Below, piece after piece: positions 17,570 to 48,683 of a DNA stretch of 59,600 bases. The translations under genes were made by a program, and so were the position numbers. Positions within the stretch are counted from its first letter, which is position 1, and every line of letters starts with the position of its first letter. The stretch is from an uncultured archaeon (GTDB lineage: Archaea > Asgardarchaeota > Lokiarchaeia > Sigyniarchaeales > SOKP01). Where the stretch lies: NCBI GenBank assembly GCA_964388035.1, contig CAYLZE010000021.1, forward strand, positions 1-59,600, given 5' to 3'. Under the pieces are notes generated by a model. The model worked only from the letters and a program-made list of their open reading frames with translations. It was not told the DNA's origin and did not search any database.

Positions 17570-20242
17570 TTATTCCTTTCTTAGAATATCTCTTAAAACT
17601 GCTTGCAAAATACCCTTATTTTTATAATAATCCACTTCTACGGGAGTATCTAAGCGTGAAATGACATCAAAAGATCTATTATCACCATTTTGAGATGCAA
17701 TTTGCACTTTTAATTCTTTCCCGGGAAAAATGTCTATTATGCCTTGAATTTTAAAAATCTCTGTTCCCTCAAGGTTAAGAGTATTTGCATTTTCTCCGTG
17801 TTTGAATTGAAGGGGTAAAATACCCATTCCGATTAAATTACTTCTATGAATTCTTTCGTATGATTCTGCAATGATTGCCTCAACCCCTAATAATTTGGGG
17901 CCTTTAGCTGCCCAATCCCTAGAGCTTCCCATCCCATAATCCTTACCCGCGATTATAATGAGTGGGACTCCTTGTTTTTGGTAATACATCGCAGCATTAT
18001 AAATTGATACAATCTCTCCAGTTATATGATTGATCGTCCAGCCACCTTCTTTGGTGACCAATTTATTACGAATTCTAGGATTGGAAAAAGTTCCTCTCAT
18101 CAACACTTCATGATTTCCTCGTCTTGATCCGTATGTATTGAAATCCTCGATAGAAATTCCTTTCGAAATGAGATATTTCCCCGCGGGAGAGCTTTTTGAT
18201 ATTGTCCCCGCAGGGGAAATATGATCTGTAGTGACACTATCTCCTAAGAAAGCTAATACTCTTGCATTTTCAAGATTTTCTAATGGAGGACGTTCAAGTG
18301 AAAAGTCTGTGAAGAACGGCGGTTCTTGAATATAAGTAGAATTCTCATCCCAAGGATAAATATCGCTCTCTGGTGGCATTAATTCATTCCAAAGTTTCCA
18401 GCCTTTAAAGATTTCATCATATTCTTTTTTAAATAAGTTAGAAGTAACGTATTTTGAAATATATTCATTAATTTCTCCTTTACTAGGCCAAATATCCTTT
18501 AAGTACACGGGATTATCATTCTTGTCTCTTCCAAGGGGTTCCTTTTCCAAATTGATCGCAATAGTACCAGCTAGAGCAAACGCAATTACTAAAGAAGGCG
18601 AAACAAGATAATTAGCTTTCACGTGAGGACTAATTCGTCCTTCAAAATTTCTATTTCCACTGAGAATAGATACCCCAATTATCTGTCGCTCGTTGATTTG
18701 CTGAACTAATGAATCATCTATAGGACCACTATTGCCAATACAAGTAGTACAACCATAAGCAACCAAAGAAAATCCCAGTTTTTCTAAATATTCCATTAAT
18801 CCTGCCTTTTTCAAATAATCGGTGACCACTCGAGAACCAGGAGCAAAGCTGGTTTTCACGTGATTTTTTACCTTCATTCCACGTTCTACCGCTTTTTTCG
18901 CAAGCAATCCCGCTGCTATCATGGTTGAGGGATTTGAAGTATTTGTGCAAGACGTGATTGCGGCAATAATAATTGCCCCATTCTCAAAATTATTTCCATC
19001 GGAAATTTTAATATTCTCCTTAGATACTTTAAAAACAGAATTCAATTGTTCCATGAAAGCATCTTTCATATTGTTTAAAGGAATTCTATCTTGGGGACGT
19101 TTCGGTCCTGCTAAATTAGGGTCAATCGTATTTAAATTTATTTCTATCTCTTCGCTATAATCCGGAATGGACTCCTCTGAGGAATAGTATAAACCTACTT
19201 TTAATAAATAATCCTTGACAAAATGAACGTATTTGGTTTCTCGTCCGCTCCTTTTCAAATATTCAATCGTTTCATCATCGACGGGAAAGAAGCCCATTGT
19301 AGCACCATATTCGGGGCACATGTTTGCAATGGTTGCTCGGTCTTCCAAGGATAAGTTTTTCAATCCTGGACCAAAAAATTCTACAAATTTTCCTACCACG
19401 CCATGCTTTCTAAGAATTTGGGTTATATGAAGTACGATGTCAGTCGCGCTTATTCCATCTTTTGGCATGCCTGTTAATCTAACTCCCACTACTTCAGGAA
19501 CGAGCATGTAATAAGGTTTATCCAATAAAACTGCTTCCGCTTCAATTCCACCTACCCCCCAACCAAGAACACCCAATCCATTTATCATTGTAGTATGGGA
19601 ATCTGTACCTATTAATGTATCGGGGAATATAAATAACTCTTGATTAATTTTCTTTATAATTGCTACCTTTGCGAGATATTCCAAGTTAATTTGATGACAA
19701 ATACCTCGGCTCGTGGGAATGATGCGGAAATTGTCAAATACATTTTGGGACCATTTTAAAAACGTGTATCTTTCTCTATTTCTTTCCATTTCTAACTTTT
19801 CATTTTTATCAATGGCGTCTTTTGTTCCATAATAATCTACTTGAATGGAGTGATCTATGATTAAATCCGCAGAAATCATGGGATTTATAAGGGAAGGATC
19901 TCCTCCTGCTCTTACCATTGCTGAGCGTAAAGCAGCAAGATCCACCATCGCTGGTACTCCCGTAAAGTCTTGTAATAAAACCCTTGCTGGAATAAAAGGA
20001 ATTTCTTTATTATCTCCCACTTCTGGAGCCCATTTAGATAACGAAATAACATGATCCATAGTTATTAGATTTCCCTCATAATTTCTAATGACATTCTCCA
20101 ATAAGATTCGTATTGAATAAGGTAATCGTTCAAAATTACCAAGACCTATTTTTGAAATTTTCCGAATATTATAAAAAAATGTTATTCCATCCTCGGACTC
20201 GAGAGTATCTTTTAATTGCTCTTGAAGATTAGTATTCGACAT
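17570..20242 (-). CDS. acnA: Aconitate hydratase AcnA (IRP-like long form)
   Basis: RVLLQDFTGVPA, DHS, GTDSHT, AITSCTNTSNP, GCTTCIGNSG, NRNFEGR, TTDHISPAG, GSSRDWAAKG. Confidence 0.97.
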   Translation of the reverse strand: MSNTNLQEQLKDTLESEDGITFFYNIRKISKIGLGNFERLPYSIRILLENVIRNYEGNLITMDHVISLSKWAPEVGDNKEIPFIPARVLLQDFTGVPAMVDLAALRSAMVRAGGDPSLINPMISADLIIDHSIQVDYYGTKDAIDKNEKLEMERNRERYTFLKWSQNVFDNFRIIPTSRGICHQINLEYLAKVAIIKKINQELFIFPDTLIGTDSHTTMINGLGVLGWGVGGIEAEAVLLDKPYYMLVPEVVGVRLTGMPKDGISATDIVLHITQILRKHGVVGKFVEFFGPGLKNLSLEDRATIANMCPEYGATMGFFPVDDETIEYLKRSGRETKYVHFVKDYLLKVGLYYSSEESIPDYSEEIEINLNTIDPNLAGPKRPQDRIPLNNMKDAFMEQLNSVFKVSKENIKISDGNNFENGAIIIAAITSCTNTSNPSTMIAAGLLAKKAVERGMKVKNHVKTSFAPGSRVVTDYLKKAGLMEYLEKLGFSLVAYGCTTCIGNSGPIDDSLVQQINERQIIGVSILSGNRNFEGRISPHVKANYLVSPSLVIAFALAGTIAINLEKEPLGRDKNDNPVYLKDIWPSKGEINEYISKYVTSNLFKKEYDEIFKGWKLWNELMPPESDIYPWDENSTYIQEPPFFTDFSLERPPLENLENARVLAFLGDSVTTDHISPAGTISKSSPAGKYLISKGISIEDFNTYGSRRGNHEVLMRGTFSNPRIRNKLVTKEGGWTINHITGEIVSIYNAAMYYQKQGVPLIIIAGKDYGMGSSRDWAAKGPKLLGVEAIIAESYERIHRSNLIGMGILPLQFKHGENANTLNLEGTEIFKIQGIIDIFPGKELKVQIASQNGDNRSFDVISRLDTPVEVDYYKNKGILQAVLRDILRKE

Positions 20243-22743: not shown

Positions 22744-24705
22744 TTAAAAATCTTCACATATCGATTCCATTTTGGGGATTGTATAAATAAGACCTCCAGA
22801 TATAACAGCTTTAATTTGTCTTTCACTCATTGCATGCATTGTCTGATATTCTTCTTTTTTGGTTTCATTTTTCACGCTAACTGCAGAACCTTTTTGAATT
22901 TCGTTTTTCATATTAGATAATTGTAAAACATCTCCTTGTTCAATTTGCTCCCAATCTTGTTTATTTTTAAAGGTAAGTGGGAGTACACCAAAATTAATTA
23001 GATTTTGCCAATGGATACGCGAAAAACTTTTAGCAATTACCACTCTTAATCCTAAATAACGAGGAGCAAGAGCAGCATGCTCCCGACTAGAACCTTGCCC
23101 GTAATTTTCTCCCCCAATTATAGCAAACCCTTTTGATTGCAGTTTTATGGCTCTCTCATAAAAACTCTCGTCTATGATATTATAAACAAATCTACTTATT
23201 TCGGGGATATTACTTCTGAAGGGTAATACTCTTGCCCCGGCAGGCATGATCTCATCTGTTGATATATTGTCGCTAACTTTTAGAATTACTGGTAATTGAA
23301 TGCTATTTGGTAAAGGTTTAAAGGCAGGAAGTGACTTGATATTGGGACCCTTTCTAAGATTCACATCTAAACACTTCTCTGGAGGAGGAATGATCATTGC
23401 TTTATTGATGATGGGTTTATCAGGTTCGATGTATTTTGGATATTTAATTTTCCAAGTTCTGGGATCTGTTATGACACCTGTTATTGCTGAAATGGTGGCG
23501 GTTTCGGGACTGCATAAGTATACTTGATCATTTTTTGTACCTGAACGACCAGGAAAGTTTCTGGGTGTTGTTCTCAGGCTTATTCCACCTGTGGGAGGTG
23601 CCTGTCCCATTCCTATACATCCGTTACAACCTGGTTCATGAATGCGAGCACCTGATTTAATTAATTGATTTAATATTTCCATATCCGCTAGATTTTCTAA
23701 GATTTCTCTGGTGGTTGGATTAACATCGTAAGAAACTTTAGGAGCAATCACTTGATCTCTTAGAATTAAAGCACAAATTGCAAAGTCTCTTAACCCGGGA
23801 TTGGCAGATGATCCGATATAACTCTGTAGAATCTCCTTTCCTGCAACTTCTGTAACGGGCACTACATTTCCTGGACTACTGGGTAATGCGATTAAGGGTT
23901 CTATTTCTGAAAGATTTATTTCGTCAGTAACATCGTATTCACATCCCTCATCTGCCATTAACTCAACATATTCATTTCCTCGATTTTCTTTTTCCATGTA
24001 ATGTTTTACTAGAAAATCAGAAGGAAAAATGCTTGTAGTTGCTCCGAGTTCGGCTCCCATATTACAAATAACGTGACGATCCATGGCAGTAAGATTTTTA
24101 AGACCAGGTCCATAATATTCAACTATTCGTCCAACTCCTCCCTTCACGTCATGTCTTCTTAGCATCTCAAGGATGATATCTTTTGCACTCGTCCAGTCAG
24201 GAAGCTCACCTACGAGTTTTATCCCCCAAATTTCAGGCATTTTAACGTAATATGGCTGTCCTGATATTGCCATTGCTACTTCCAACCCGCCTGTTCCAAT
24301 GGCTAACATCCCTAATCCTCCTGCTGCAGGAGTATGGCTGTCAGATCCTAATAAAGTTTTTCCAGGAATACCGAATCTTTCCATATGAAGGGGATGACTC
24401 ACACCATTTCCGGGACGGCTATACCAAAGTCCAAATTTTTGGCAAGCTGTATATAAAAAGAGATGATCATCTGGATTTTTAAAATCTGCTTGAATCAAGT
24501 TATGATCTACATATTGGACAGAAACTTCTGTCTTGGCCCTTCCCATTTCCATTGCTTCTAATTCTAACATTACCATGGTTCCAGTAGCATCTTGACATAA
24601 TGTTTGGTCAATTCTTATTCCAATCTCCTCACCCACCTCCATCTTACCTTCAAGGAGATGAGCCTTAATTAATTTTTGTGCAAGGGTTAATTTTTCATTA
24701 CTCAT
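22744..24705 (-). CDS. Aconitate hydratase, short (mitochondrial/Aquifex-like) form
   Basis: DQTLCQDATG, VDHN, GSDSHT, GSSAN, GCNGCIGMG, PRNFPGR, STDEIMPAG, GQGSSREHAA. Confidence 0.9.
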   Translation of the reverse strand: MSNEKLTLAQKLIKAHLLEGKMEVGEEIGIRIDQTLCQDATGTMVMLELEAMEMGRAKTEVSVQYVDHNLIQADFKNPDDHLFLYTACQKFGLWYSRPGNGVSHPLHMERFGIPGKTLLGSDSHTPAAGGLGMLAIGTGGLEVAMAISGQPYYVKMPEIWGIKLVGELPDWTSAKDIILEMLRRHDVKGGVGRIVEYYGPGLKNLTAMDRHVICNMGAELGATTSIFPSDFLVKHYMEKENRGNEYVELMADEGCEYDVTDEINLSEIEPLIALPSSPGNVVPVTEVAGKEILQSYIGSSANPGLRDFAICALILRDQVIAPKVSYDVNPTTREILENLADMEILNQLIKSGARIHEPGCNGCIGMGQAPPTGGISLRTTPRNFPGRSGTKNDQVYLCSPETATISAITGVITDPRTWKIKYPKYIEPDKPIINKAMIIPPPEKCLDVNLRKGPNIKSLPAFKPLPNSIQLPVILKVSDNISTDEIMPAGARVLPFRSNIPEISRFVYNIIDESFYERAIKLQSKGFAIIGGENYGQGSSREHAALAPRYLGLRVVIAKSFSRIHWQNLINFGVLPLTFKNKQDWEQIEQGDVLQLSNMKNEIQKGSAVSVKNETKKEEYQTMHAMSERQIKAVISGGLIYTIPKMESICEDF

Positions 24706-24756: not shown

Positions 24757-26028
24757 TTATCGCTCCTCCATAGGAACATATTTTTTGTTTAACTCGCCTA
24801 TATATCTTAATCTAGGACGAATAAGTTTGTTATCAGATAGCTGTTCTATCGCATGAGCCACCCATCCTACACTTCTTGAGGCTGCAAAGAGGGGAGTAAA
24901 TGAAAGCGTGGGAATTCCAAGTATATGAAGTAGTCCTGCAGAATATAAATCTACGTTTGGATAGATATGCTTATTTTTTATCATATAATCAGTTAAAACT
25001 TCCGTCATTTCGTAGATATTGTCAATTTTACCGTGTTCATCTTTATGAGTGGGATTCGGAATGGCTCCTTCGACTTCTCCTCTTTCCCATTGATCCCAAA
25101 ATTTCTTTGATAATTCACGCAAGATTTTTGCCCTTGGATCCCAAGTTTTATATATCCTATGACCAAATCCCATTATTTTCTCTTTATTTTTCAGCTTCTC
25201 TTCAACCCATGGAATGACGTTATCTTTTTTCTTGATCTCTTCAAGCATGGCTCGAATAACACGCTCATTAGCTCCTCCATGCAGAGGACCCCTTAAAGTG
25301 CCAATTGCACTAGTTACACCACTATATAAATCCGATAAAGTAGATACTGTGACTCTACAAGCAAAGGTGGATGCATTTATTGAATGATCAGCATGACATA
25401 TTAGAATATCATCAAAAGCTTCTACAAATTCTTGACTCGGTTCATTTCCGGTCATCATGTAGTAGTAATTCGCCGCGTGGGAATCATTATCAGATGGTTC
25501 GACCAATGGCTCATTAGATTGGATTCTATGGGAAAAAGCTAAGATTGTGGGAAGTTTTGCTATAATCCTCACCCCTTTTCTAACATTGGCTTCTTGTGAA
25601 TAATCATAATTATCATAATCATATAGCGATAAAGCGGATATTGCAGTTCTTAATAATTCGATTCTTGTGGTATTTCGGGGAAAGCTTTTAAGGATGGCTA
25701 AAATGTTATCGGGGATGCCTCTCTCCTTAATTAATTCATCTTTAAATTCACTATATTGAGATTTCGTAGGTAATTTTCCATTTATCAGTAAGTATGCCAC
25801 CTCTTCGAAATTGGAATGTTCAACTAAAGTTTCCACGGGATATCCACGATAATATAACTCGCCTTGCACGCCATCAATCATGGTAATTGTACTCTCATCC
25901 ACGTAGATGCCGACGAGTCCTTTATATGTTTTAGATTGATCTAATTCACATAATTTGGGTTCTTCTTCTTCATAATCTTCACAGATAAAAGAAAGGGATG
26001 TTTCGCACGCTTCTTTACCAACATTCAT
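24757..26028 (-). CDS. gltA: Citrate synthase
   Basis: LYYRGY, HADHSINAST, GPLHGGANE, GFGHRIYK..DPR, YPNVD, LIRPR. Confidence 0.93.
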   Translation of the reverse strand: MNVGKEACETSLSFICEDYEEEEPKLCELDQSKTYKGLVGIYVDESTITMIDGVQGELYYRGYPVETLVEHSNFEEVAYLLINGKLPTKSQYSEFKDELIKERGIPDNILAILKSFPRNTTRIELLRTAISALSLYDYDNYDYSQEANVRKGVRIIAKLPTILAFSHRIQSNEPLVEPSDNDSHAANYYYMMTGNEPSQEFVEAFDDILICHADHSINASTFACRVTVSTLSDLYSGVTSAIGTLRGPLHGGANERVIRAMLEEIKKKDNVIPWVEEKLKNKEKIMGFGHRIYKTWDPRAKILRELSKKFWDQWERGEVEGAIPNPTHKDEHGKIDNIYEMTEVLTDYMIKNKHIYPNVDLYSAGLLHILGIPTLSFTPLFAASRSVGWVAHAIEQLSDNKLIRPRLRYIGELNKKYVPMEER

Positions 26029-26136: not shown

Positions 26137-27192
26137 TTAATAAAGGATATCATTTGAAATTTCTTTTAAGGATTTGCAGTTGGTCATTAACATGGCTTTT
26201 TGAAGTGTTTTTTGAAGGTATTCCATATTTACCCGTACACCCTCAATCCCAGCTCCCACGGCAGCCCTGATTAAGTCCCTTCCAATCAAAACCGCCTCAG
26301 CACCCAATGCCAGCATCTTTAATGCATCATATCCCGTTCTAACTCCTCCATCAGCAAAGATCTTAATTTTTCCTTTAACTTTTTTCACGATAAATGGTAA
26401 AACTTCTGCAGTTCCAGGTGTATGATCCAAAACGCGTCCGCCATGATTTGATACTACAATCGCAGCTGCCCCGACTTCCACAGCCTTAACAGCATCTTCA
26501 ACACACATTACTCCTTTTATTATAAATGGAAGGTTGGTAGATCTTTTAAGTTCCTTAAGGTCCTCCACGCTTTTCCTAAATACTGGTTTACCATGTTTTG
26601 CCATCATGTATGATCCACATCCATCTATATCAACTCCAACAGCTAAGGTACCCACACCTTCCGCTTTTTTGAATAACTTTATTATTTCTTCTTGTTCTCG
26701 TGGTTTTACAATTTTAACTCCAACTCCTCCTGCTTCTGCTATTGCATCAATCCCGTAGGAATTATCAATGGAATAATTATGGCTATCTCCCCGCCATCCA
26801 ATGGAGCCCGCTTCTTTGCATCCTAATACAATATCTCGACAGAACTCTCGTTCAGTAATGATTTCATCTCCACCAAAACTGTCCACACCTGCCACGCTTG
26901 CTCCCATAATCGGCATTTGTATTTCTTTATTAAAAAATACATACTCTGTATTTGGTGTGAAATGGTCTCCAATCAAGCTTGTCTTTAACTTAATTTGTTT
27001 TAAAGCTAAAAAATTGTTATGAAAGCTTGCTCCTGATCCAATTGCTCCAATACCTAAGGGTCTTCCATAGCTTTGTCCTTGGCATAGTCGTGTATCTAAA
27101 CCATCACAAATCCGATATACGCCACATATTCCCTTTAACTTATTTCTAGCACTTTCACGTGCATCTTCTAATGTCAAATTTTGTTGAGTAAT
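26137..27192 (-). CDS. FMN-dependent alpha-hydroxy acid dehydrogenase with N-terminal Cys cluster; start probably ATT at 27192
   Basis: IIKG, SNHGGR, DGGVRTG.DALKMLALGA motifs; N-terminal CGVYRICDGLDTRLC; SD GAGGTGA 27205-27199 + 6 nt + ATT. Confidence 0.88.
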   Translation of the reverse strand: MTQQNLTLEDARESARNKLKGICGVYRICDGLDTRLCQGQSYGRPLGIGAIGSGASFHNNFLALKQIKLKTSLIGDHFTPNTEYVFFNKEIQMPIMGASVAGVDSFGGDEIITEREFCRDIVLGCKEAGSIGWRGDSHNYSIDNSYGIDAIAEAGGVGVKIVKPREQEEIIKLFKKAEGVGTLAVGVDIDGCGSYMMAKHGKPVFRKSVEDLKELKRSTNLPFIIKGVMCVEDAVKAVEVGAAAIVVSNHGGRVLDHTPGTAEVLPFIVKKVKGKIKIFADGGVRTGYDALKMLALGAEAVLIGRDLIRAAVGAGIEGVRVNMEYLQKTLQKAMLMTNCKSLKEISNDILY

Positions 27193-27208
27193 TTTCTTTC
27201 ACCTCAAT

Positions 27209-28600
27209 TTAAACCATATTCTTTGGATCTAGAATCTCATCCAGATTTTTTTCAAGTGGTATATTCATTTCTAAAATTACTTCCTTTATTGTTTTTCCTT
27301 CTTTATATGCTCTTTGAGCAATTTCTGAGCATTTATCATAACCAATATATGGGCTAAGATTAGTTACTATCATTAACATGCGATCTAATTGGGATTGAAT
27401 CTGCTCTTTATTTGCCTTTAGCTCTATCAAGCAATGCTTAACAAATGAATTAATACATCCACTAAGGATCTGAATTGATTCTAATAGATTGGTAATCATG
27501 AGAGGATTACCTACACATAAATCTAAAATACTAAGATAAGCTTCGCAAAAGTTTATAGTAGTATCATTTCCCATTACTTGCAAGCACACTTGTATCATGG
27601 CTTCTGACTGGGTGGGATTGATTTTACCCGGCATTATGGAGGATCCTGGTTCGTTTGCGGGTAGGATCAATTCTCCTAATCCTGCTCTTGGACCACTCCC
27701 CATCCATCTGATATCGTTTGCCATTTTCATTAAAGAGAGGGCAAATAGACGCATATTACTGCTAACATGGACAAGAGTATTATGAGATGCTATCCCTTCA
27801 GCTTTTACCGGATTATTCATAATGGGAAATTTGGTGAGTTGTGATAATTCTTGCGCAAATAATTTTGGGAAATCTTCATGACAATTAAGCCCCGTTCCGA
27901 CGGCAGTACCTCCTTGAGGAATAAAACACAATTCGTCAAAAGAATCTTTTAGTCTTTTCTTGTTTACTTTAATCTGCCGTAAATATACTTCAAACTCCAT
28001 AGAAAGTGGAATGGGCACAGCATCTTGCAAATGGGTCCTTCCAACCTTGACTATATTTTTAAATTCATTTACTTTTTTTTCTAAAGCTTCAATTAGCCGT
28101 TTGATTGAGGGAAATAAGATTTCGTCAAGCAAGTGAAGAGTTGAGAGATGCATGGCAGTTGGAATAACATCATTTGACGATTGCCCCATGTTGACATGGT
28201 CATTAGGATGAACAGGAAATTTTTTACCTTTCTCATGACCTAATATTTCACTTGCCCTATTGGCGAGTACTTCATTCATGTTCATGTTCGTTTGAGTTCC
28301 AGATCCTGTTTGAAATACATCGATTTGAAACTGATCCATGTATTTACCTTCCTGTAATAATTCGTCAACTGCTTTTAAAATGGCATTTCCCTTTTCTTTA
28401 TCCATCAACTCTAATTTCATATTGGTTAGTAGACTTGCCTTTTTAACTTCTGCTAACGACTTGATAAAAATTGGAGGCAATTTCTTATTACTTATCTGAA
28501 AATTATCTAATGCCCGTTGGGTATTTATACCATAATAAGCACTTTTAGGAACAGGTAATTCTCCCAATACATCCTTTTCCATTCGAAATTCTTCATTCAT
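27209..28600 (-). CDS. fumC: Class II fumarate hydratase
   Basis: FQTGSGTQTNMN, HPNDHVN, SSND, GRTHLQDA, GSSIMPGKINP. Confidence 0.95.
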   Translation of the reverse strand: MNEEFRMEKDVLGELPVPKSAYYGINTQRALDNFQISNKKLPPIFIKSLAEVKKASLLTNMKLELMDKEKGNAILKAVDELLQEGKYMDQFQIDVFQTGSGTQTNMNMNEVLANRASEILGHEKGKKFPVHPNDHVNMGQSSNDVIPTAMHLSTLHLLDEILFPSIKRLIEALEKKVNEFKNIVKVGRTHLQDAVPIPLSMEFEVYLRQIKVNKKRLKDSFDELCFIPQGGTAVGTGLNCHEDFPKLFAQELSQLTKFPIMNNPVKAEGIASHNTLVHVSSNMRLFALSLMKMANDIRWMGSGPRAGLGELILPANEPGSSIMPGKINPTQSEAMIQVCLQVMGNDTTINFCEAYLSILDLCVGNPLMITNLLESIQILSGCINSFVKHCLIELKANKEQIQSQLDRMLMIVTNLSPYIGYDKCSEIAQRAYKEGKTIKEVILEMNIPLEKNLDEILDPKNMV

Positions 28601-28678: not shown

Positions 28679-29428
28679 TTAACGTTCTCTCAGTTCATTA
28701 ATCGCCGTACCTGGCATGACTCCTTTAGGGCATACGCGATTGCATACGAAAAACTTTTCACATGAAGGAACTCCGTCCTTTTCCATGACGCGAGAAAAGA
28801 TAGTCTCTTTACGCTGGTCAGATGTGCGTGAATCTCTAACAAATCTATTTGCTTTAGCTAATTGAGCGGGTCCTAAATAGTTAGGATCCTTTTTATTAAC
28901 AGGACAAGCCCAGCATAGCCCACACAAAATACAATATACATATCTTTCTATCGTTTTCATTTGACTCGGTGACTGCTGGGATTCAGGAGCAACATCGTTC
29001 CACTCTCTGGTAAAATACGGTTCGACTTCCCTATAGAAGGCCCAAAATGGTTCCATGTCCACGACAAGATCTTTTATCACTTCCATGTTAGGTAAAGGTT
29101 CAATTAAAATCTCGTTCTCTTTATCCCAATCTGAGATATCTCCAAAGACGTATTCCGGTAAATTGATTGGTTTTTTCTCCTTTTTAAATGTTAGGACTTG
29201 TGATCGACATGCTAAGGATGGGACTTGGTCAATGCTCATGCCACATGATCCACATATAGCCCCTCTACAAGCATAGCGAAAAGCAAATGAAGAATCGAAA
29301 TGATCTTGTATATAAAACAGGGCTTCCAAGACATTCATGCCCTTCTTAACTGGAACTTCAAATCGATCATACTTGACCTTTCCATCTCCCTTATTTCGAT
29401 AAACTAAAAATTTTTGTATCGTGCTCAT
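28679..29428 (-). CDS. sdhB: Succinate dehydrogenase/fumarate reductase iron-sulfur subunit
   Basis: CRGAICGSC...C (2Fe-2S), CILCGLCWACP, CEKFFVCNRVCP, DLVVDM. Confidence 0.93.
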   Translation of the reverse strand: MSTIQKFLVYRNKGDGKVKYDRFEVPVKKGMNVLEALFYIQDHFDSSFAFRYACRGAICGSCGMSIDQVPSLACRSQVLTFKKEKKPINLPEYVFGDISDWDKENEILIEPLPNMEVIKDLVVDMEPFWAFYREVEPYFTREWNDVAPESQQSPSQMKTIERYVYCILCGLCWACPVNKKDPNYLGPAQLAKANRFVRDSRTSDQRKETIFSRVMEKDGVPSCEKFFVCNRVCPKGVMPGTAINELRER

Positions 29429-29429
29429 T

Positions 29430-31142
29430 TTAATACTCCCGTTTTTTTATTTCAAATATTCCTAATTTCACAGGTTTAGTTTTTATTTCCAAATCATCTT
29501 TTTTCTTATAAACTAATGAATGTACTAGATAATTATCATCATCTTGATCTGGAAAATCCAGTCGAGAGTGAGCTCCCCTACTTTCTTTCCTCCATAATGC
29601 TACATTCGCAGTTACTCTGGCAATTTGCAGCATGTTTCTAAGTTCAAGGGTGCGAATTAAACCATAATTAAATTTCCGATCTGTAGTTTCCATGTGAACA
29701 TCAAGGAAATCTTTTTGTAATTGTTCAAGTACATCACAAGCTTTTTCAAGATCTTCTTTGTTTCTATATATTCCCACATTAGAATTCATGATTTCACCCA
29801 TTTTTTCTCTAATAACCACGGGCATTACTCTTGAATTCTTTTCCCATTGATCAAACATCATTTCAATAGAAGCTATCATTTTATCTTCTGCTTCCTTAAT
29901 AACATCAGAGGGCTTCTTTTTAGGTAACCCTCTCTTTAGCAAAGTCCTTCCTATTGCTCTTCCAAAGACAGAAGTTTCTAAGAGCGAATTTCCCCCTAAT
30001 CGGTTAGCACCATGGACCGAAAGACATGAACATTCTCCTAACACCCATAATCCTGATAGATCCGTTTCTCCATGATCTCCTTGATACTTTGTGGCAATTC
30101 CGCCCATGCTATAATGCTGTCCTGGCTGAACTGGGATCGGCTCATCAATGGGATCGATACCAGCAAAATACATGCTAATTTCCCTAATACCAGGGAGACG
30201 CTCTTTTATTTTCTTTTCTCCGAGATGAGTAAGATCTAGATTAACATACGCATCCTCGATAGCGGTACCCTCATTTACTTCATCTTGGATTGCGCGAGCT
30301 ACGAGGTCTCGAGGGGCAAGTTCCATTGCTTCAGGAGCAGTTTTACTCATAAAACGTTCACCTTTAGCATTAAGTAAAGTCCCTCCCTCTCCACGAGCTC
30401 CTTCTGTAATCAAAATATTAGTACCATATAATGTAGTTGGATGAAATTGAACGAACTCACAATCCTCTAAGGGAAGACCTGCTCGGAATGATGCTCCCAC
30501 TCCATCTCCCGTGTTGATTATGGAATTAGTTGATCGTTTAAACATGCGCCCAAATCCTCCCGTTGCCAATATCACGTAATTAGAACGGAAAATAACTAAT
30601 TCCCCTTTACCTATATCTAAAAATATTCCCCCAGTTATCGCATCATCAACTCTAATGAGATCTATTAGATAATATTCATTAAAGAAGGTGACTTGATTTC
30701 GATTACATTGTTCAAACAACGTATGTAATAAAGCATGTCCAGTCCTATCACCTGCATAACAAGTTCTTGGAAAACCTGCTCCTCCAAAAGGGCGCTGGGC
30801 GATTAAACCTGTTTCTAATCGAGAAAAGGGAGCACCCATACTTTCAAATTCAATGACTATTTTTGGAGCCTCTTCGCACATGAACATTACTACATCTTGG
30901 TCAGCAAGATAGGCTGCTCCTTTAACAGTATCAAATGCATGGCGTTTTGGAGTGTCATCTTTACCTTCTTCTAAATTACGCAATGCTGCATTGATACCAC
31001 CTTGAGCAGCACATGAATGACTTCGAACTGGATATACTTTGCTAATGACTGCTACATTCCACTTGCGAGAAAGTTCCAATCCCGCCCTTAATCCACTTAA
31101 CCCAGCTCCTACAATAATCGCGTCAAATTCTTCTATTCTCAT
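29430..31142 (-). CDS. sdhA: Succinate dehydrogenase/fumarate reductase flavoprotein subunit
   Basis: [16 protein letters not shown] (covalent FAD His), [39 protein letters not shown] at 31142 avoids overlap with icd. Confidence 0.95.
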
Positions 31143-31164
31143 GATTTTAGAATTTTTATTTTTT

Positions 31165-32349
31165 TTAAGCTTTAATTTCAATCCTTTTTTTTTCGGGATT
31201 TCTCATGACTTCCATGACATATTTTGTAAATTCTTCACCCGTTGCTCCATTTTTATCTCCAGTAACAGCCACTTTTCTTTCATATATTCCGCATATATCT
31301 AAAGCATTTTCCAATTTATTTGCGTGATCTTTATATCCTATATGATTTAATAGCATGACCACTGCTCTTAGCAAGCTAGAAGGATCTGCATACATTGCCC
31401 TTCCTTGTTCTACCATTCTGGGTGCGGAACCATGAATTGCTTCAAACATTGCATATCGTTTTCCAATGTTTGCACTCCCCGCAGTGCCTACTCCTCCTTG
31501 CATCTGTGCAGCCTCATCGGTTAAAATATCACCGTAAAGATTGGGTGTTACAATCACCTTAAAGTTACTCTGTTTTTCAGGAATTAATAATTCCGCAGTC
31601 ATTATATCAATATACCAATCATCCCATTCTACTTCAGGAAAATCTTTTGCCACTTCTCTGGCAATTGCTAAAAATTTTCCATCTGTAGTCTTCACCACAT
31701 TGGCTTTCGTCACAACTGTAAGCCTATTTAGACCATTTTTCTTAGCATAATCAAAAGCATATCTGATTATCCTTTCAGCACCTTGAGTGGTAATAACCTT
31801 AAAATCAATAGCTAAGTCCTCAGTCACGTTCAACCCTTCTGAGCCTAAAATATAAGCTCCCTCCGTATTTTCTCTGAAAAAGGTCCAATGAATATTTTTT
31901 TCAGGGACTTTTACAGGGCGGATATTCGCAAATAAATCTAACTCCCTGCGAATCGCAACATTTGCACTTTCGATATTTGGCCACTTATCTCCCTTCCTAG
32001 GAGTAGTAGTGGGTCCTTTTAATAGAACGTGGCATTTCTTAATTTCATTTAAAACGTCTTCGGGTATAGCTTTCATCTTTTTCGCTCGATTTTCGATCGT
32101 CAAGCCTTCTATTACCTTAAATTCAACTTTTCCGCTTTTTAATTCCTCTTCTAAAAGGAATGTAAGAACAGTTCGCGCATGTTCCGAAATATAGGGTCCA
32201 ATTCCATCTCCTGGTGCGAATCCAATAATTATAGGATCTAGTTTTGAATGGTCGATCCAATCTCCTTCATTTTTGATATATTCTACACGTTCTAATTGCT
32301 TTTCAACTATCTTGCCGAATTTTTCTTTTGCTTTTTCAATTTCTTCCAT
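31165..32349 (-). CDS. icd: Isocitrate dehydrogenase (IDH/IMDH family)
   Basis: [15 protein letters not shown] (isocitrate-type Ser/Asn), [23 protein letters not shown]; TCA context; SD GGAGGT precedes ATG 32349. Confidence 0.85.
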
Positions 32350-32371
32350 ACTTTGATTAACCTCCTTCATT

Positions 32372-33229
32372 TTAACGAAATGTATTTAGCAATTCGTTAA
32401 ACTTCTCTCTCTTAAATTCCCTTTGAAAAAGTGGTGTATCATCTTCTTTATAAATTCCCACATTTTCTTCAAAGGTGTTTTTATAAGGATTAATGTAAAA
32501 AATCCCTAAAGGATATCGATCTGTTTGCAATGCAAGTTTCATGGCTGCAAGTTGGTCTTGAGGATTATGTTCATCCTCAATATAATATGTATTTTCCTTG
32601 TACCACTGATACGTGTTAAGTGTATTAAAAGTTACACAAGGACAAAATAAATCGATAAGAGCATAACCTTTATGTTTTATTGCTTTTTTAAGAATTTCCT
32701 TGGTCTTTTCTTTATCTCCTACAAACGCACGTGCCACGAAAGATGCATCTAATGAAATGGCAATTGCGGTAGCATTAAAGGGATGATTATATACTCCATT
32801 GACTTGTACTTTTGTCACAAAACCAATCAAACTCGTTGGGGATGCTTGCCCTTTCGTCAATCCATATATTTGATTATTATGAACAATATTAACGATATTA
32901 GGATTATAGCGAATTGTATGGATGAAATGATTACCTCCTTCACTAAAGGTGCATCCATCTCCACTGACTGCTATGACTGTTAATTGCGGATTTGCCGCTT
33001 TAATCCCTATCGCATTGGATAAGTATCTTCCGTGCAATCCATTAAAACTTTGAGCTTTCATGAAATGAGGTAACTTTCCCGCTTGGCCAATTCCTGAAAC
33101 TACCACTAAGTTCTGTGGTCTTATCTCTAGTTCAATTAGGCTTTCTTTTAAAATATCAAGAGCGGGATAATTACCGCAACCTGGACACCAATGCTTTTCA
33201 ATATCTAAATCATACTTACTGGCTTCCAA
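32372..33229 (-). CDS. korB: 2-oxoacid:ferredoxin oxidoreductase beta subunit (KorB-like)
   Basis: [39 protein letters not shown]. Confidence 0.9.
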
Positions 33230-43790: not shown

Positions 43791-44753
43791 TTAGTCCTCT
43801 TCTAATTTCATTGCCATTATATATTCTTCATTAGTCACGAAACGATATATTGCTTTTAAGACAGCATTAAAAGCCGTGGGATTTTCGAGATTTGGGGGAT
43901 TTCCTAAATTTTCAGGAATGTCTAAAATATTTGGTGGTTTTCTGAACTGAAAATTTAATTCTGTTATATTTTTCATTTGTCGTTTTTGGGATGAAATTTC
44001 TTCAAAACCTATTTTAGGCACGTTAAATCCTTGCTTAATCTTCTTCTTGATTTTTTTGCTCTCTTCCTCCATGGATCTGCTCTCAATATCATTTTCTGAA
44101 AGATGTAATTCTCTTAAAAGTTCTCCTTTAGTTTTTCCTCTCAATTTTAATAAGATAAAGGGATCATAATCAAGAACTCGAGCAATATATAAAATTGTAG
44201 CGGCTATATGCTTACAAGGAACTTCTTTATCAGGACAAGAACAGGTGGCATTTAACCCATCTTTGGTTATATCTGGAAAGAGAGGATGTCCATATTTTTT
44301 AAAAGTCTCAGCAATTTCTTCAGGTAATATGCCTTCAAGTAGTTCAATCAAATATAAAGGTGATTTAGCAATTTCCTCAATTATCTTCTTCCATTCCTCT
44401 TCCGGGATCACGTGAAAATGAATGTTAATTCTGTAGGGTGTGGGAGCTGTTCCTTGAACAGTAGAAAAAATATGCCCCTTGTTGATACTTAATGCATCAA
44501 TTTTCCCATTTAAAGCATAATCTATTCCCCTCTGCATTCTAAATGGACGTCCTAATTGTAGAATAGAATTAACCCATTGTTTACTCCATATTGATTTAGA
44601 GAAATTGCTCAAATTCTTTTTAATCTGTTGTACTTCCTCCTGGGTTTTTTTTCTTTCATGTTCTGTTTTTGGAAACTTTTTATATGGTTTATTTCTTCGA
44701 TCTTCATTGAAAAAATCTCTTTCACGCAACTTTATCCCTCCTGTAAATTTCAT
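43791..44753 (-). CDS. SWIM zinc-finger protein (SNF2-associated)
   Basis: RMQRG..YA, VQGT..PY, CSCPD..VPCKH, DPFILLKLRG; 4-nt overlap with the SNF2 gene. Confidence 0.9.
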   Translation of the reverse strand: MKFTGGIKLRERDFFNEDRRNKPYKKFPKTEHERKKTQEEVQQIKKNLSNFSKSIWSKQWVNSILQLGRPFRMQRGIDYALNGKIDALSINKGHIFSTVQGTAPTPYRINIHFHVIPEEEWKKIIEEIAKSPLYLIELLEGILPEEIAETFKKYGHPLFPDITKDGLNATCSCPDKEVPCKHIAATILYIARVLDYDPFILLKLRGKTKGELLRELHLSENDIESRSMEEESKKIKKKIKQGFNVPKIGFEEISSQKRQMKNITELNFQFRKPPNILDIPENLGNPPNLENPTAFNAVLKAIYRFVTNEEYIMAMKLEED

Positions 44754-47700
44754 TCATTTAGAGTTATAATTTCTTTTATTTTTTCGATATTCAAGTCTGT
44801 AATCCAATTTTCTCCACTCGATGTTATAATAGCATCTGCCAATTCTTTCTTTTCACTCAATAAAATTTCTATTTTTTCTTCAATTGTGCCAAGTGTTATA
44901 AATTTGTACACATTTACTGTATGGGTCTGCCCTATTCGATAAGCTCTATCAGTTGCTTGAGCTTCCACACTCGGATTCCACCACCTGTCAAAGTGGATAA
45001 CTGTGGTCGCACGAGTCAGGTTTAAACCCGTCCCTCCCGCCTTTAAAGAAAGAATTAAGATGGGAGCACTATCTATCGCATTGGATTGGAATTCATCTAT
45101 GATCTCTTTTCTTTTTTTCTCGGGTACACTTCCATGAAAAAATAACGTCTTGAAAGCGTAGCTTTCTTGTAGCACCCTTAAAAGTAAATCTCCCATTTTT
45201 TTAAATTGAGTAAAAATTATAACCTTTTCTTCATTAGATATAATTTCCTCTATCATTTCAACAAGACGTTCTAATTTATTTGAATATGAAATCACTTCTT
45301 CGAATGGTTGCTCGAAATTCTCTTTCTTTAAATATTGATAAGGATGATTACATATCTGCTTTAATTTGACTAATAATCGTAAAATTAAGCCAGCACTCTT
45401 AAACTTATCCGCTTTCATGAGTTCCATTTGTTTTAACGTTTCTGATACCTCTTTTTTATACAAAATTGCTTGTTGATCTGTTAATTTTATGTAAATCTTG
45501 ATTTCATTCTTTTCAGGTAAATCCTTAATAATGGATTTATCCGATTTCACGCGACGTAAAATGAAGGGATTAATTATTTCTTTCAAATTATCAATTATAT
45601 CCTTATCTTGATATCTTTCAATCGGAATAACATAGCTTTTTAAAAATTGAGTTCTATTTCCTAATAAACCCGGATTTAAAAACTCAAATAAACTCCATAA
45701 TTCTAAAAGTCGATTCTCGATAGGAGTACCGCTCAAGCAAATTCTATAACTACTTTTTAAGCGATGTAATGCCTTGGTTTGTTTTGCATCAAAGTTTTTT
45801 ATATTCTGTGATTCATCCACAATTACGCCTTGATAATTAATTTTTTCGAGTAATTCTATATCGTTTCTTATCGTTCCATAAGTCGATAATATGATAATAT
45901 TTGGTAAGGTATATTCATTTAATTTTTTTAAATTTGAAATCCTGTTAGGACCATGATGTACAATAAATTTTAGACTTGGTCCGAATTTTTCCATTTCTCT
46001 CTGCCAATTAAATAGAACGGAAGTAGGACAAATAATTAAAATTCCCCCGGCAAGTTGAGGAAAATGCTGTTTACGGTAAAGCAGATATGCTATTACTTGT
46101 ATGGTCTTTCCTAAGCCCATATCGTCGGCCAAACATACTCCGAAATTTAAATCACACATGTTTGCCAGCCAAGTCAGCCCTACTTTTTGATACTCCCTTA
46201 AGGTTCCATTAAAGGAATTCGGAACAGTAATTTCTCTAACTTTTTCGGTGAATTGCAACCTTTCAATAATATCATTGAGATAACCTTCCACCACCACTTC
46301 ATACGTATTTTCTCCTTCTTGCAATTCCGCCTGTCCAGATAATCCTAATTTTAATGCTGGCAAGAAATTAATAGTTCCATCTGGTTTCAACCCCAAATTC
46401 TGTGATCCCTGAGGAGTTAATAGGTTGTTTAAATTCTGGAAATCTTCTTTCTCAATTAAGACCCATTTTCCATCAACATTAATTAATGGTTCCTGGGTAG
46501 ATATAATCATTTGTTTTTGAGCATCCGTGAGTCCTTTTCCCTCTAAAGAAACTTGCCATTTGTATTGTAATAACGTGTTTATATCAAACAATGATGGCAA
46601 CCCATCGGATGTTCCTTTGACACTTTTTTTTCTTTTAGGTGAAAATATAATTAATTTTGTAGATAATCTCTGGTTTCCTCCTTTTGTAAAGACTTCGGGG
46701 ACGATTACATTGAATCCGCTTTGAATTAATAAATCTTTGGGATATTTTAAAAAATCCATAACTTCTGAAGGACTTAAAAGCATTTTTTCGGGTAAACGTA
46801 GTCTAAGTTCTTTTTTAATGGGAGGAAATATGTTCGAAATCATCCCGAATGCTCTCAAAATGAATTCTATAAATGCTTCTCTATCTTTAAAAATCTCGGA
46901 AAAATAGTTATTATAATAGGTTTCGTTCTCCCACGCTTCCATTATCCCAAATTCCTTATTATTATTCCGTAGTTTAATAGAGAATGCTAAAGGCCAGTCA
47001 GTATTACTATTTTCGGGAAGATTCAATTTTATGTTAAATAGCACCTGCCTATTTGCTTGAAATATCTGTGAGATATTAACCCAATTTCTTATAATTTTTG
47101 GAATTATGGTATCATGAAACGTGCTAATAGGGAAATCAGAATTTTTTCCTACTAAAGAATTCAGAAATTTAAAATCCCAATCAAATGGTTTACTTTCTTC
47201 AGGAGTTTTTATTTTATCCATTCCATAATAGTCTTCAAAAGCTCTAAATTCACTCTTATTCAAAAAATATCGGATTAAGTAATTCCCCACTTGATCTAAG
47301 AATAGAGTATATAGATATAAAGGATGCCATAGACCACTTGTCATGAAGGGAATGTCCTTCTCCCTCCCTTTTGAGGTAACTTCGATAAAGTCTGCGGGTA
47401 AATTATATGTCAACCAGTGACTCTCATTTATAATTGCATTAAATCTCTCATTATCAGAAGCAGTTTTTAATATTAATTGCCACTTGCCTTCATATAATTT
47501 TGGCTCTTCTTGTTCAAGTATAGGGATGAAATTCCCTCTGGTGATGAGTTCAAAAATTAATTTGGTTAAGTAGGACCAAGTTTTTATACTCTCACTAAGA
47601 TTTCCTTCTCCTAAGTTGCTCTCCTTTATTATTTTTAACTTGTATAAGATTTTAATTGCAGGCAAAATGGGTATGATTTTCCCAACATGAGGGTTAACAT

Positions 47701-48001
47701 AGAAAACATCCTTATCGTTGAGGCTTAATGTTTCAATTTCTTCTGTTTTTTTATAGTGTTCAGGAGTCACTGCTAGATTGATACGACAAGTTAGTAGTTT
47801 TTGAACGGGAATTTCAGGAAAAGTAAAATTTAATAATTTAGAAAGTTGGGTTTCAGTTGAAAGCTGGTCACTCCAAAAAATAAAAAAATCTGCATTCTCG
47901 GGAAGTTTTGTGTCTTTATTTAATAGTTCAAACCCGCTTAGCGGATTAGTCCAATATTTTGAGGGAATATAACTTAATTGAAGGGTCATGTTTTGATTCA
48001 C
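44750..48001 (-). CDS. SNF2-family ATPase (SSO1653/DUF3670-like)
   Basis: LADDMGLGKT, CPTS, DESQNIKN, SGTPIENRL, LRRVK, LSLKAGGTGLNLT, DRWWNP, QATDRAYRIGQ. Confidence 0.95.
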   Translation of the reverse strand: MNQNMTLQLSYIPSKYWTNPLSGFELLNKDTKLPENADFFIFWSDQLSTETQLSKLLNFTFPEIPVQKLLTCRINLAVTPEHYKKTEEIETLSLNDKDVFYVNPHVGKIIPILPAIKILYKLKIIKESNLGEGNLSESIKTWSYLTKLIFELITRGNFIPILEQEEPKLYEGKWQLILKTASDNERFNAIINESHWLTYNLPADFIEVTSKGREKDIPFMTSGLWHPLYLYTLFLDQVGNYLIRYFLNKSEFRAFEDYYGMDKIKTPEESKPFDWDFKFLNSLVGKNSDFPISTFHDTIIPKIIRNWVNISQIFQANRQVLFNIKLNLPENSNTDWPLAFSIKLRNNNKEFGIMEAWENETYYNNYFSEIFKDREAFIEFILRAFGMISNIFPPIKKELRLRLPEKMLLSPSEVMDFLKYPKDLLIQSGFNVIVPEVFTKGGNQRLSTKLIIFSPKRKKSVKGTSDGLPSLFDINTLLQYKWQVSLEGKGLTDAQKQMIISTQEPLINVDGKWVLIEKEDFQNLNNLLTPQGSQNLGLKPDGTINFLPALKLGLSGQAELQEGENTYEVVVEGYLNDIIERLQFTEKVREITVPNSFNGTLREYQKVGLTWLANMCDLNFGVCLADDMGLGKTIQVIAYLLYRKQHFPQLAGGILIICPTSVLFNWQREMEKFGPSLKFIVHHGPNRISNLKKLNEYTLPNIIILSTYGTIRNDIELLEKINYQGVIVDESQNIKNFDAKQTKALHRLKSSYRICLSGTPIENRLLELWSLFEFLNPGLLGNRTQFLKSYVIPIERYQDKDIIDNLKEIINPFILRRVKSDKSIIKDLPEKNEIKIYIKLTDQQAILYKKEVSETLKQMELMKADKFKSAGLILRLLVKLKQICNHPYQYLKKENFEQPFEEVISYSNKLERLVEMIEEIISNEEKVIIFTQFKKMGDLLLRVLQESYAFKTLFFHGSVPEKKRKEIIDEFQSNAIDSAPILILSLKAGGTGLNLTRATTVIHFDRWWNPSVEAQATDRAYRIGQTHTVNVYKFITLGTIEEKIEILLSEKKELADAIITSSGENWITDLNIEKIKEIITLNE

Positions 48002-48036
48002 TCTATGAAAACCAAGTCTGAAACATCATTGATAAT

Positions 48037-48618: not shown

Positions 48619-48683
48619 TTTATTTCGTTTTAAAAGTTTAAAACTTAATTAATAGAAGGAGTTCCCTTATTAAAAGTTTAGAG

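What the first reader, a model, noticed from the sequence alone, without database searches (positions are those of the whole stretch)
26137..27192. FMN alpha-hydroxy acid dehydrogenase in the malate dehydrogenase slot of a TCA cluster
Seen: gene order sdhA-sdhB-fumC-[FMN dehydrogenase]-gltA-acn follows pathway order succinate>fumarate>malate>oxaloacetate>citrate>isocitrate. The gene starts 16 nt after fumC, and no NAD-dependent mdh or mqo is in the window. It has the SNHGGR catalytic motif and three N-terminal cysteines. Established: this family oxidises L-2-hydroxy acids (lactate, glycolate, mandelate) to 2-oxo acids, and L-malate is an L-2-hydroxy acid. Inference: a non-orthologous, possibly Fe-S-linked, FMN-dependent malate dehydrogenase.
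Basis: inference. Interest (0 to 1): 0.72.

Follow-up and report, generated by a model that had tools for sequence, protein, structure and literature searches.

The report
Candidate flavin/iron-sulfur malate dehydrogenase
An Asgard archaeon keeps an unusual cysteine-bearing flavin enzyme exactly where malate dehydrogenase belongs among its citric-acid-cycle genes, and cultured Desulfobacter species that run this cycle without any recognisable malate dehydrogenase gene carry the same enzyme, so it is probably an undescribed, NAD-independent kind of malate dehydrogenase, although nobody has assayed it.

Summary
Observation confirmed. The gene (minus strand, probable ATT start at 27192) is a PF01070 FMN barrel in a Lokiarchaeia cluster: korAB-idh-sdhAB-fumC-[X]-gltA-acn. 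The genome has no Arg102 MDH (its one Ldh_1 protein is a Gln102 LDH) and no Mqo, but it does have a type-2 (Ldh_2) MDH candidate elsewhere.

The protein belongs to a three-cysteine subfamily. In metagenomes 23/31 of its loci lie within 3 kb of a TCA gene, against 0/39 for the four-cysteine sister subfamily. Among 81 Desulfobacter-related genomes, Arg102 MDH occurs in 3/40 that have the enzyme and 31/41 that lack it. D. postgatei and D. hydrogenophilus carry it (51-53% identical, behind korAB), and no Mdh, Mqo or Ldh_2 was found in them. From memory, D. postgatei has an O2-labile, NAD(P)-independent malate dehydrogenase.

Best reading (~0.75): L-malate:acceptor oxidoreductase, electrons passing FMN to Fe-S to a rubredoxin-type or other carrier. 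Against: no assay; several canonical substrate residues are changed; one Asgard family keeps an Arg102 LDH-like protein as well.

The scan found this idea before on other Asgard genomes. The Desulfobacter link and the exclusion tally were not in the notes I retrieved.

The parts
26137..27192 (-). Three-Cys subfamily FMN 2-hydroxy-acid dehydrogenase, candidate NAD-independent malate dehydrogenase (351 aa from ATT 27192; 346 aa from TTG 27177)
27199..27205 (-). Shine-Dalgarno-like GAGGTGA, 6 nt before the ATT start
   Evidence: similar sites precede ATG/ATA/TTG starts in homologues
27082..27126 (-). Codons of the Cys loop C-x2-Y-x2-C-D-G-x5-C (Cys18, Cys24, Cys32, TTG numbering), putative Fe-S site
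   Evidence: Cys present in all 81 subfamily rows, which were classed by this motif, and in 43/43 sister rows; the sister subfamily has a fourth Cys where this one mostly has Tyr
27209..28600 (-). Class II fumarase fumC (makes L-malate)
   Evidence: TIGR00979 574 bits, best family but below its 665 cut-off
24757..26028 (-). Citrate synthase gltA (uses oxaloacetate); the only copy in the genome
   Evidence: TIGR01800 above cut-off
22744..24705 (-). Short aconitase (653 aa)
   Evidence: NF005558 above cut-off
17570..20242 (-). AcnA-type aconitase (890 aa)
   Evidence: sequence; syntenic with gltA in relatives
28679..31181 (-). sdhA-sdhB, no membrane anchor subunits adjacent
31165..32370 (-). Isocitrate/isopropylmalate dehydrogenase family (probable idh)
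   Evidence: PF00180 E=5e-68
32372..34970 (-). korA-korB 2-oxoacid:ferredoxin oxidoreductase
   Evidence: TIGR03710 above cut-off; sequence

Best explanation
The gene encodes an NAD-independent L-malate:acceptor oxidoreductase that fills the malate/oxaloacetate step of the TCA cycle. SHOWN: it is an intact FMN barrel of the lactate/glycolate oxidase fold, with the catalytic His245, Arg248, Lys221 and Asp185 kept and an N-terminal three-Cys loop; it travels with TCA genes; it largely replaces canonical MDH in genomes. INFERRED: L-malate from the adjacent fumarase is oxidised at C2 by His/FMN chemistry, and oxaloacetate goes to the adjacent citrate synthase. FMNH2 is reoxidised in one-electron steps through an Fe-S cluster on the Cys loop ([3Fe-4S], or [4Fe-4S] with one non-Cys ligand) to a rubredoxin-type or other carrier. 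Relatives carry a fused rubredoxin(-like) domain; this genome encodes free rubredoxins. A higher-potential acceptor would avoid the +30 kJ/mol cost of malate oxidation by NAD+. The NAD(P)-linked Ldh_2 enzyme would serve the reductive direction, as MDH and Mqo often coexist in bacteria.
For: (1) Directly after fumC in 8/9 relatives (ninth: korAB>X>gltA>acnA>sdhAB) and in 29/29 top Lokiarchaeia loci. Other Asgard families show other orders: X>gltA>acnA, X>gltA>idh, korAB>X>sdhAB>fumC>acnA, X>korAB>fumC>sdhA. (2) Malate is the only step lacking a canonical enzyme in this genome; sucCD is on C9. (3) In 61 relatives: 7/8 genomes with both fumC and gltA have it, and the eighth has a decayed remnant between the two genes; 3/11 with fumC only; 0/12 with gltA only; 0/30 with neither. 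(4) Metagenome sample: TCA gene within 3 kb in 23/31 three-Cys loci versus 0/39 four-Cys loci; the three-Cys group is one side of a branch, SH-aLRT 88. (5) Desulfobacter relatives: Arg102 MDH in 3/40 genomes with the enzyme versus 31/41 without. 30/40 have none of Arg102 MDH, Mqo or Ldh_2. (6) D. postgatei (EIM64526.1) and D. hydrogenophilus (QBH13639.1) carry it as korA-korB-X, 51-53% identical to the query. Both are reported to run a TCA cycle (PMC9768450, PMC4374699, PMC7699770), yet no Ldh_1, Mqo or Ldh_2 was found in them. From memory, not retrievable here: Brandis-Heep et al. 1983 described the D. postgatei malate dehydrogenase as membrane-bound, O2-labile and not NAD(P)-coupled. (7) The 14 Asgard genomes with a strong-scoring bacterial-type Arg102 MDH belong to families with 0/17 carriers. 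(8) Rubredoxin fusions in relatives. Subfamily-enriched basic residues R/K30, R/K201, R304 could bind a second carboxylate (positions not located in 3D).
Against: No enzyme assay exists, and no held paper names an FMN-dependent malate dehydrogenase. This genome, like 51/61 relatives, has an Ldh_2 protein whose best PDB match is annotated malate dehydrogenase (3i0p, E=8e-98), so the step is not strictly orphan here. In Asgard family f16, at least 5 carriers (G118, G121, G132-G134) also have an LDH-like protein with Arg102. By alignment, the canonical Tyr146 (lactate oxidase numbering) is replaced by Arg160, the lid with Arg181 is deleted, and the Tyr40 region is replaced by the Cys loop; loss of such residues often went with inactivity in a screen (PMC8491902). 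One Asgard family (f13) and several other members are not TCA-linked. korAB adjacency also fits 2-hydroxyglutarate. Kin are not independent, so the tallies reflect a few evolutionary events. The protein has no transmembrane segment, whereas the remembered Desulfobacter activity was membrane-bound.
Confidence: 0.75

Rival explanations
1. It is an L-2-hydroxyglutarate dehydrogenase (repair or feed-in) that makes 2-oxoglutarate for KorAB.
For: Directly behind or before korAB in Desulfobacter and in several Asgard families. It is also a dicarboxylic 2-hydroxy acid, so extra basic residues would fit.
Against: The most persistent neighbour in Lokiarchaeia is fumC, then gltA. L-2-hydroxyglutarate is largely a side product of MDH/LDH (established knowledge), so a repair enzyme should co-occur with MDH rather than exclude it (3/40 versus 31/41). 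It would leave Desulfobacter without a malate step.
Confidence: 0.08
2. It is an anaerobic L-lactate or glycolate dehydrogenase feeding pyruvate or glyoxylate into central metabolism.
For: These are the family's usual substrates (PMC9670274), and the best PDB and NCBIfam matches are lactate/glycolate enzymes. A lone LUD-domain gene lies 10 kb upstream. One four-Cys locus sits with lactate-utilisation-like genes (L032, read by eye).
Against: All LldD, lactate oxidase and MftD models are far below cut-off. The four-Cys sister loci are never TCA-linked and the three-Cys loci mostly are. No isocitrate lyase match in this genome. It does not explain the exclusion of MDH.
Confidence: 0.07
3. It acts on the malate/oxaloacetate couple or another TCA-related metabolite in a different way: mainly as a reductant-driven oxaloacetate reductase, on D-malate or isocitrate-like acids, or by non-canonical chemistry, since the substrate site is remodelled.
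For: Tyr146, Arg181 and Tyr40 equivalents are altered across both Cys subfamilies. D. hydrogenophilus runs the cycle reductively (PMC4374699). Earlier notes report it beside ATP-citrate lyase genes (e1-5528535, unchecked).
Against: His, Arg, Lys and Asp of the 2-hydroxy-acid site are almost invariant, and the fold is closest to hydroxy-acid oxidases (Z 37 versus 28 for IDI-2). Here it sits before citrate synthase, which needs oxaloacetate.
Confidence: 0.1

Closest known systems
FMN-dependent (S)-2-hydroxy-acid oxidases/dehydrogenases (Pfam PF01070): glycolate oxidase/HAO1, L-lactate oxidase, LldD, mandelate dehydrogenase/oxidase, flavocytochrome b2
   Same: Same beta8/alpha8 FMN barrel (model pLDDT 96; Z 37.4, rmsd 2.4 A over 313 residues to 5zzp); SNHGGR, FMN-binding Lys and Asp kept.
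   Different: Only 23-29% identity; N-terminal Cys loop; lid and second carboxylate-binding Arg deleted; QxY strand replaced by KPR; below every curated family cut-off; malate was not among the substrates in the papers read; TCA-cluster context.
Malate:quinone oxidoreductase (Mqo, EC 1.1.5.4)
   Same: Proposed reaction: NAD-independent, flavin-mediated malate oxidation that often coexists with NAD-MDH (PMC8100219).
   Different: Mqo is an FAD protein of another fold (PF06039). This one is an FMN barrel with a putative Fe-S or rubredoxin relay. Not homologous.
NAD(P)-dependent malate dehydrogenases (Ldh_1 Arg102 type; Ldh_2 type such as PDB 3i0p)
   Same: Same pathway position.
   Different: Different fold and cofactor. 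The Arg102 type is nearly mutually exclusive with this enzyme in Desulfobacter relatives; the Ldh_2 type is distributed independently of it.
Four-Cys (CxxCxxCxGxxC) FMN dehydrogenases of anaerobic bacteria, annotated 'alpha-hydroxy-acid oxidizing protein'; Desulfovibrio DVU2784 is probably of this kind (from memory)
   Same: Sister subfamily, 40-47% identical, same remodelled active site and Cys loop.
   Different: Fourth Cys where the query has Tyr21; lacks the short insertions; 0/39 loci TCA-linked. DVU2784 was called LldD from sequence and expression only (PMC4481167).
NAD(P)-independent malate dehydrogenase activity of Desulfobacter postgatei (Brandis-Heep et al. 1983; properties from memory, paper not held)
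   Same: An O2-labile, non-NAD activity would fit an Fe-S flavoprotein; the organism encodes this subfamily and no other MDH type was found.
   Different: Reported as membrane-bound with menaquinone as likely acceptor; the protein has no transmembrane helix. I found no paper assigning a gene.

Membership tests
FMN 2-hydroxy-acid oxidase/dehydrogenase family (PF01070) | beta8/alpha8 FMN-binding barrel, Pfam above cut-off | tested here: met
   197 bits versus 24.9; top Foldseek and VIA-align matches are all family members
FMN 2-hydroxy-acid oxidase/dehydrogenase family (PF01070) | Catalytic His and Arg (SNHGGR), FMN Lys, and Asp174 equivalent | tested here: met
   H245, R248, K221 invariant and D185 96% in 81 subfamily rows
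FMN 2-hydroxy-acid oxidase/dehydrogenase family (PF01070) | Substrate-binding Tyr146 and Tyr40 (lactate oxidase numbering) | tested here: inconclusive
   MAFFT places Arg160 at Tyr146, while HMMER shifts the register; no Tyr either way. The Tyr40 region is replaced by the Cys loop, where Tyr21 or Tyr37 might substitute. Model coordinates could not be inspected.
FMN 2-hydroxy-acid oxidase/dehydrogenase family (PF01070) | Active-site lid loop with the second carboxylate-binding Arg (Arg181) | tested here: not met
   About 30-37 residues after Asp185 are missing relative to canonical members
LldD / L-lactate oxidase / MftD | NCBIfam score above curated cut-off | tested here: not met
   128/550, 94/645.5, 118/471 bits
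Type 2 IPP isomerase (IDI-2) | TIGR02151 above cut-off; closest fold | tested here: not met
   59/281 bits; Z 28 versus 37; the genome has an IDI-2-like fusion on C159 (read by eye)
Canonical MDH (PF00056) or Mqo (PF06039) | Match to the NAD-binding Ldh_1 or FAD-binding Mqo family | tested here: not met
   No such Pfam or NCBIfam match for the protein
Malate dehydrogenase (acceptor), as an activity | Oxidises L-malate to oxaloacetate without NAD(P) | not testable with these tools
   Only genomic context and distribution
Fe-S flavoprotein | Bound iron-sulfur cluster on the Cys loop | not testable with these tools
   Three Cys conserved in both subfamilies, a fourth in the sister group; needs Fe/S analysis and EPR

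The most novel reading that the evidence does not exclude
The three-Cys subfamily is a further, unrelated class of malate dehydrogenase (FMN plus Fe-S, rubredoxin-linked), used by about a quarter of the Asgard genomes searched and by Desulfobacteraceae, and it is the gene for the NAD-independent malate dehydrogenase measured in Desulfobacter in the 1980s.
Probability: 0.6. Interest if true: 0.85.

Novelty: new variant of a known kind. Interest (0 to 1): 0.76.

Why it matters
If true, it adds an unrecognised enzyme class to a core step of the TCA cycle. It would close the apparent malate gap in metabolic reconstructions of Lokiarchaeia and other Asgard archaea (108/400 genomes have a homologue), which bears on models of the eukaryotic host's metabolism. 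It would also assign a gene to an old, apparently orphan activity in cultured sulfate reducers that oxidise acetate or fix CO2 through the cycle. The Desulfobacter homologues make the claim testable in culturable organisms.

Tried and rejected
RNA evidence: no RNA holder was listed; not evidence either way. Paper searches for an FMN-dependent or NAD-independent malate dehydrogenase, and for a characterised member of the Cys subfamily, found nothing. The Brandis-Heep 1983 paper is not held, and no held paper that I read stated the cofactor of the Desulfobacter enzyme. The pattern search of genome contigs returned only four four-Cys loci, none TCA-linked. The ESM Atlas returned only unnamed 'alpha-hydroxy-acid oxidizing protein' clusters. 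Rejected: that the C52 Ldh_1 protein is the MDH (Gln102; LDH models above cut-off). Rejected: IDI-2. Checked for a divergent Mqo with the G461 Mqo-like protein: only weak generic FAD hits in G000 and D. hydrogenophilus, none in D. postgatei. The futalosine menaquinone marker PF02621 was not found in G000; other quinone routes were not tested. No complex prediction was run, since enzyme-carrier pairs are poorly resolved by that tool. Fisher tests are descriptive only, because kin are not independent.

Full report
OBSERVATION. The finding lies on the minus strand of contig C21, in a 5.47-Mb genome (96.7% complete, 7.3% contaminated). Its closest named homologues are from Promethearchaeota/Lokiarchaeota. 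The co-directional run is korA-korB-idh-sdhA-sdhB-fumC-X-gltA-aconitase, with a second aconitase 2.5 kb further on. X is PF01070 (E=5e-58) but far below the cut-off of every named family: LldD, lactate oxidase, MftD, IDI-2. It gives the N-terminal length seen in most homologues (first motif Cys at residue 23 in 79/119), and homologues have ATG, TTG, GTG or ATA at or next to this position. I accept it as the likely start. Residue numbers below count from the TTG start (346 aa).

THE PROTEIN. The AlphaFold model (pLDDT 96) is a 2-hydroxy-acid oxidase barrel: Z 37.4 to mandelate oxidase and 35.8 to lactate oxidase, against 28 to IDI-2. His245, Arg248, Lys221 and Asp185 are conserved. The site is otherwise remodelled: the QxY strand reads KPR, the lid loop with the second carboxylate-binding Arg is deleted, and the Tyr40 region is replaced by a Cys loop. 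Homologues fall into two subfamilies. One has four Cys (CxxCxxCxGxxC) and occurs in anaerobic bacteria. The other has three Cys (Cxx[Y/N]xxCDG-x5-C) and holds the query; it forms one side of a branch (SH-aLRT 88, quick tree) and is enriched in Tyr37, Ser189, R/K201 and Arg304. Many three-Cys members carry an N-terminal rubredoxin or rubredoxin-like domain. The query does not, but its genome has two free rubredoxins. Fe-S binding is inferred.

OTHER MALATE ENZYMES IN THE GENOME. Mqo was not found. The only Ldh_1 protein has Gln102 and passes LDH cut-offs; Gln102 is the published criterion for LDH (PMC13147460). Every Ldh_1 protein read in the 61 relatives was also Gln102. All other cycle steps are present, sucCD on C9. 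A malic enzyme and an Ldh_2 protein most like the PDB malate dehydrogenase 3i0p are present. Ldh_2 occurs in 51/61 relatives regardless of the TCA cluster. It is a real alternative for this step, but it does not track the cycle.

CONTEXT IN ASGARD. Homologues occur in 108/400 phylum genomes. X follows fumC directly in 8/9 relatives and 29/29 top Lokiarchaeia loci, and fumC-X survives when the other genes scatter. Other families keep it among TCA genes in different orders, including a distant rubredoxin-fused form before korAB-fumC-sdhA; family f13 is unlinked. Among 61 relatives it is present in 7/8 genomes with both fumC and gltA (one, G012, matches only residues 79-345), 3/11 with fumC only, 0/12 with gltA only and 0/30 with neither. 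The eighth 'both' genome (G021) has a 30-codon remnant with a stop between fumC and gltA. The same-genus genome G001 has idh-fumC-acnA, with X, gltA, the short aconitase and sdhAB gone from the locus. Fourteen Asgard genomes have a strong bacterial-type Arg102 MDH; their three families have 0/17 carriers of X. Counter-example: family f16 carriers also have an LDH-like protein with Arg102 (5 read).

CONTEXT OUTSIDE ASGARD. In 80 metagenome loci, 23/31 three-Cys loci have gltA, aconitase, korAB, sdhAB, fumC or idh within 3 kb, against 0/39 four-Cys loci. Bacterial three-Cys members include Desulfobacter, Desulfamplus and a Myxococcota genome where the gene is divergent from aconitase. Of 81 genomes around Desulfobacter latus, 40 have the subfamily. 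Arg102 MDH is in 3 of these 40 (one a fragment) and in 31 of the other 41; Mqo-like hits occur only in 2 non-carriers; Ldh_2 is in 7 carriers. Among the nearest 49 genomes, 6 of the 9 non-carriers have MDH, probably one lineage. Exact look-up names G408 as D. postgatei and G413 as D. hydrogenophilus. Both have korA-korB-X, 51-53% identical to the query, and no Ldh_1, Mqo or Ldh_2 was found in either. Both are reported to run a citric acid cycle (PMC9768450, PMC4374699, PMC7699770), so they need a malate/oxaloacetate enzyme. From memory (paper not held), the D. postgatei enzyme was described in 1983 as O2-labile, membrane-bound and not NAD(P)-coupled. These genomes are kin, so the counts stand for a few events.

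MECHANISM. Most likely (0.75): fumarase gives L-malate; His245 and FMN oxidise C2; oxaloacetate goes to citrate synthase; electrons leave through the Cys-loop cluster to a rubredoxin-type or other carrier. Malate oxidation by NAD+ costs +30 kJ/mol and is exergonic with quinones, and MDH and Mqo often coexist (PMC8100219), so an acceptor-linked enzyme beside an NAD(P)-linked Ldh_2 has precedent. The acceptor in Lokiarchaeia is unknown. Fold, residues, linkage and distribution are shown; substrate, cluster and acceptor are inferred. Rivals: 2-hydroxyglutarate dehydrogenase (0.08), lactate or glycolate dehydrogenase (0.07), another reaction or mainly the reverse direction (0.10).

COMPARISON AND NOVELTY. 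It is a divergent member of the FMN 2-hydroxy-acid dehydrogenase fold family, and it fails the lid/Arg181 feature and every named subfamily. It would work like Mqo without being related to it. The PPO-node review lists only NAD(P)-MDH and FAD-Mqo for this step, and no held paper names an FMN-dependent malate dehydrogenase. Class: new variant of a known kind. Earlier agents of this scan reached the same idea on other Asgard genomes; that is not independent evidence. The Desulfobacter assignment and the exclusion tally did not appear in the follow-up notes retrieved. Interest 0.76.

Noticed in passing
window 27190-27192 (-); L136, L147: Probable non-standard ATT start; two homologues appear to start at ATA after a good Shine-Dalgarno site, so AT(T/A) starts may be used in Lokiarchaeia.
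   Followed up: partly
window 28679-31181: sdhAB has no adjacent membrane-anchor genes here or in the relatives' loci examined; its electron acceptor is unclear.
   Followed up: no
window 17570-20242 and 22744-24705: Two different aconitases (AcnA 890 aa and a short 653-aa type) flank the end of the cluster; many relatives also keep both.
   Followed up: partly
window 35420-38596: Upstream of korA: a 210-aa ORF with no family match, a CitMHS/ArsB-type transporter (36059-37366) and a lone LUD-domain gene (37916-38596).
   Followed up: no
window 44750-50606: SNF2 helicase (DUF3670 type) next to an Eco57I/TaqI-like DNA methyltransferase; possible defence module.
   Followed up: no
L003 (G000:C159): ORF of over 630 aa that looks like an isopentenyl phosphate kinase fused to type 2 IPP isomerase (read by eye).
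   Followed up: no
proteins P0134, P0147 and others of 720-930 aa: Four-Cys FMN dehydrogenases fused behind an ATP-grasp (L-amino acid ligase-like) domain, a recurring unexplained architecture.
   Followed up: no
L335-L337, L345-L347: Six Desulfobacter relatives that lack the FMN enzyme carry a tandem pair of Arg102 mdh genes.
   Followed up: partly
L198, L202-L207, L352-L359: In Desulfobacteraceae-like loci the gene sits in a block with a citrate synthase-family gene, small proteins resembling ferredoxin-thioredoxin reductase and glutaredoxin, and a downstream flavodoxin-like gene (read by eye); the last may be the electron carrier.
   Followed up: no
L376, L378, L383-L385: Asgard family f16 has LDH-like proteins with Arg102, candidate LDH-to-MDH switches.
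   Followed up: partly
L189:6168-6257; L044: Decayed copies: a 30-codon remnant between fumC and gltA in G021, and broken fragments in G055, in which fumC and gltA were not found.
   Followed up: yes
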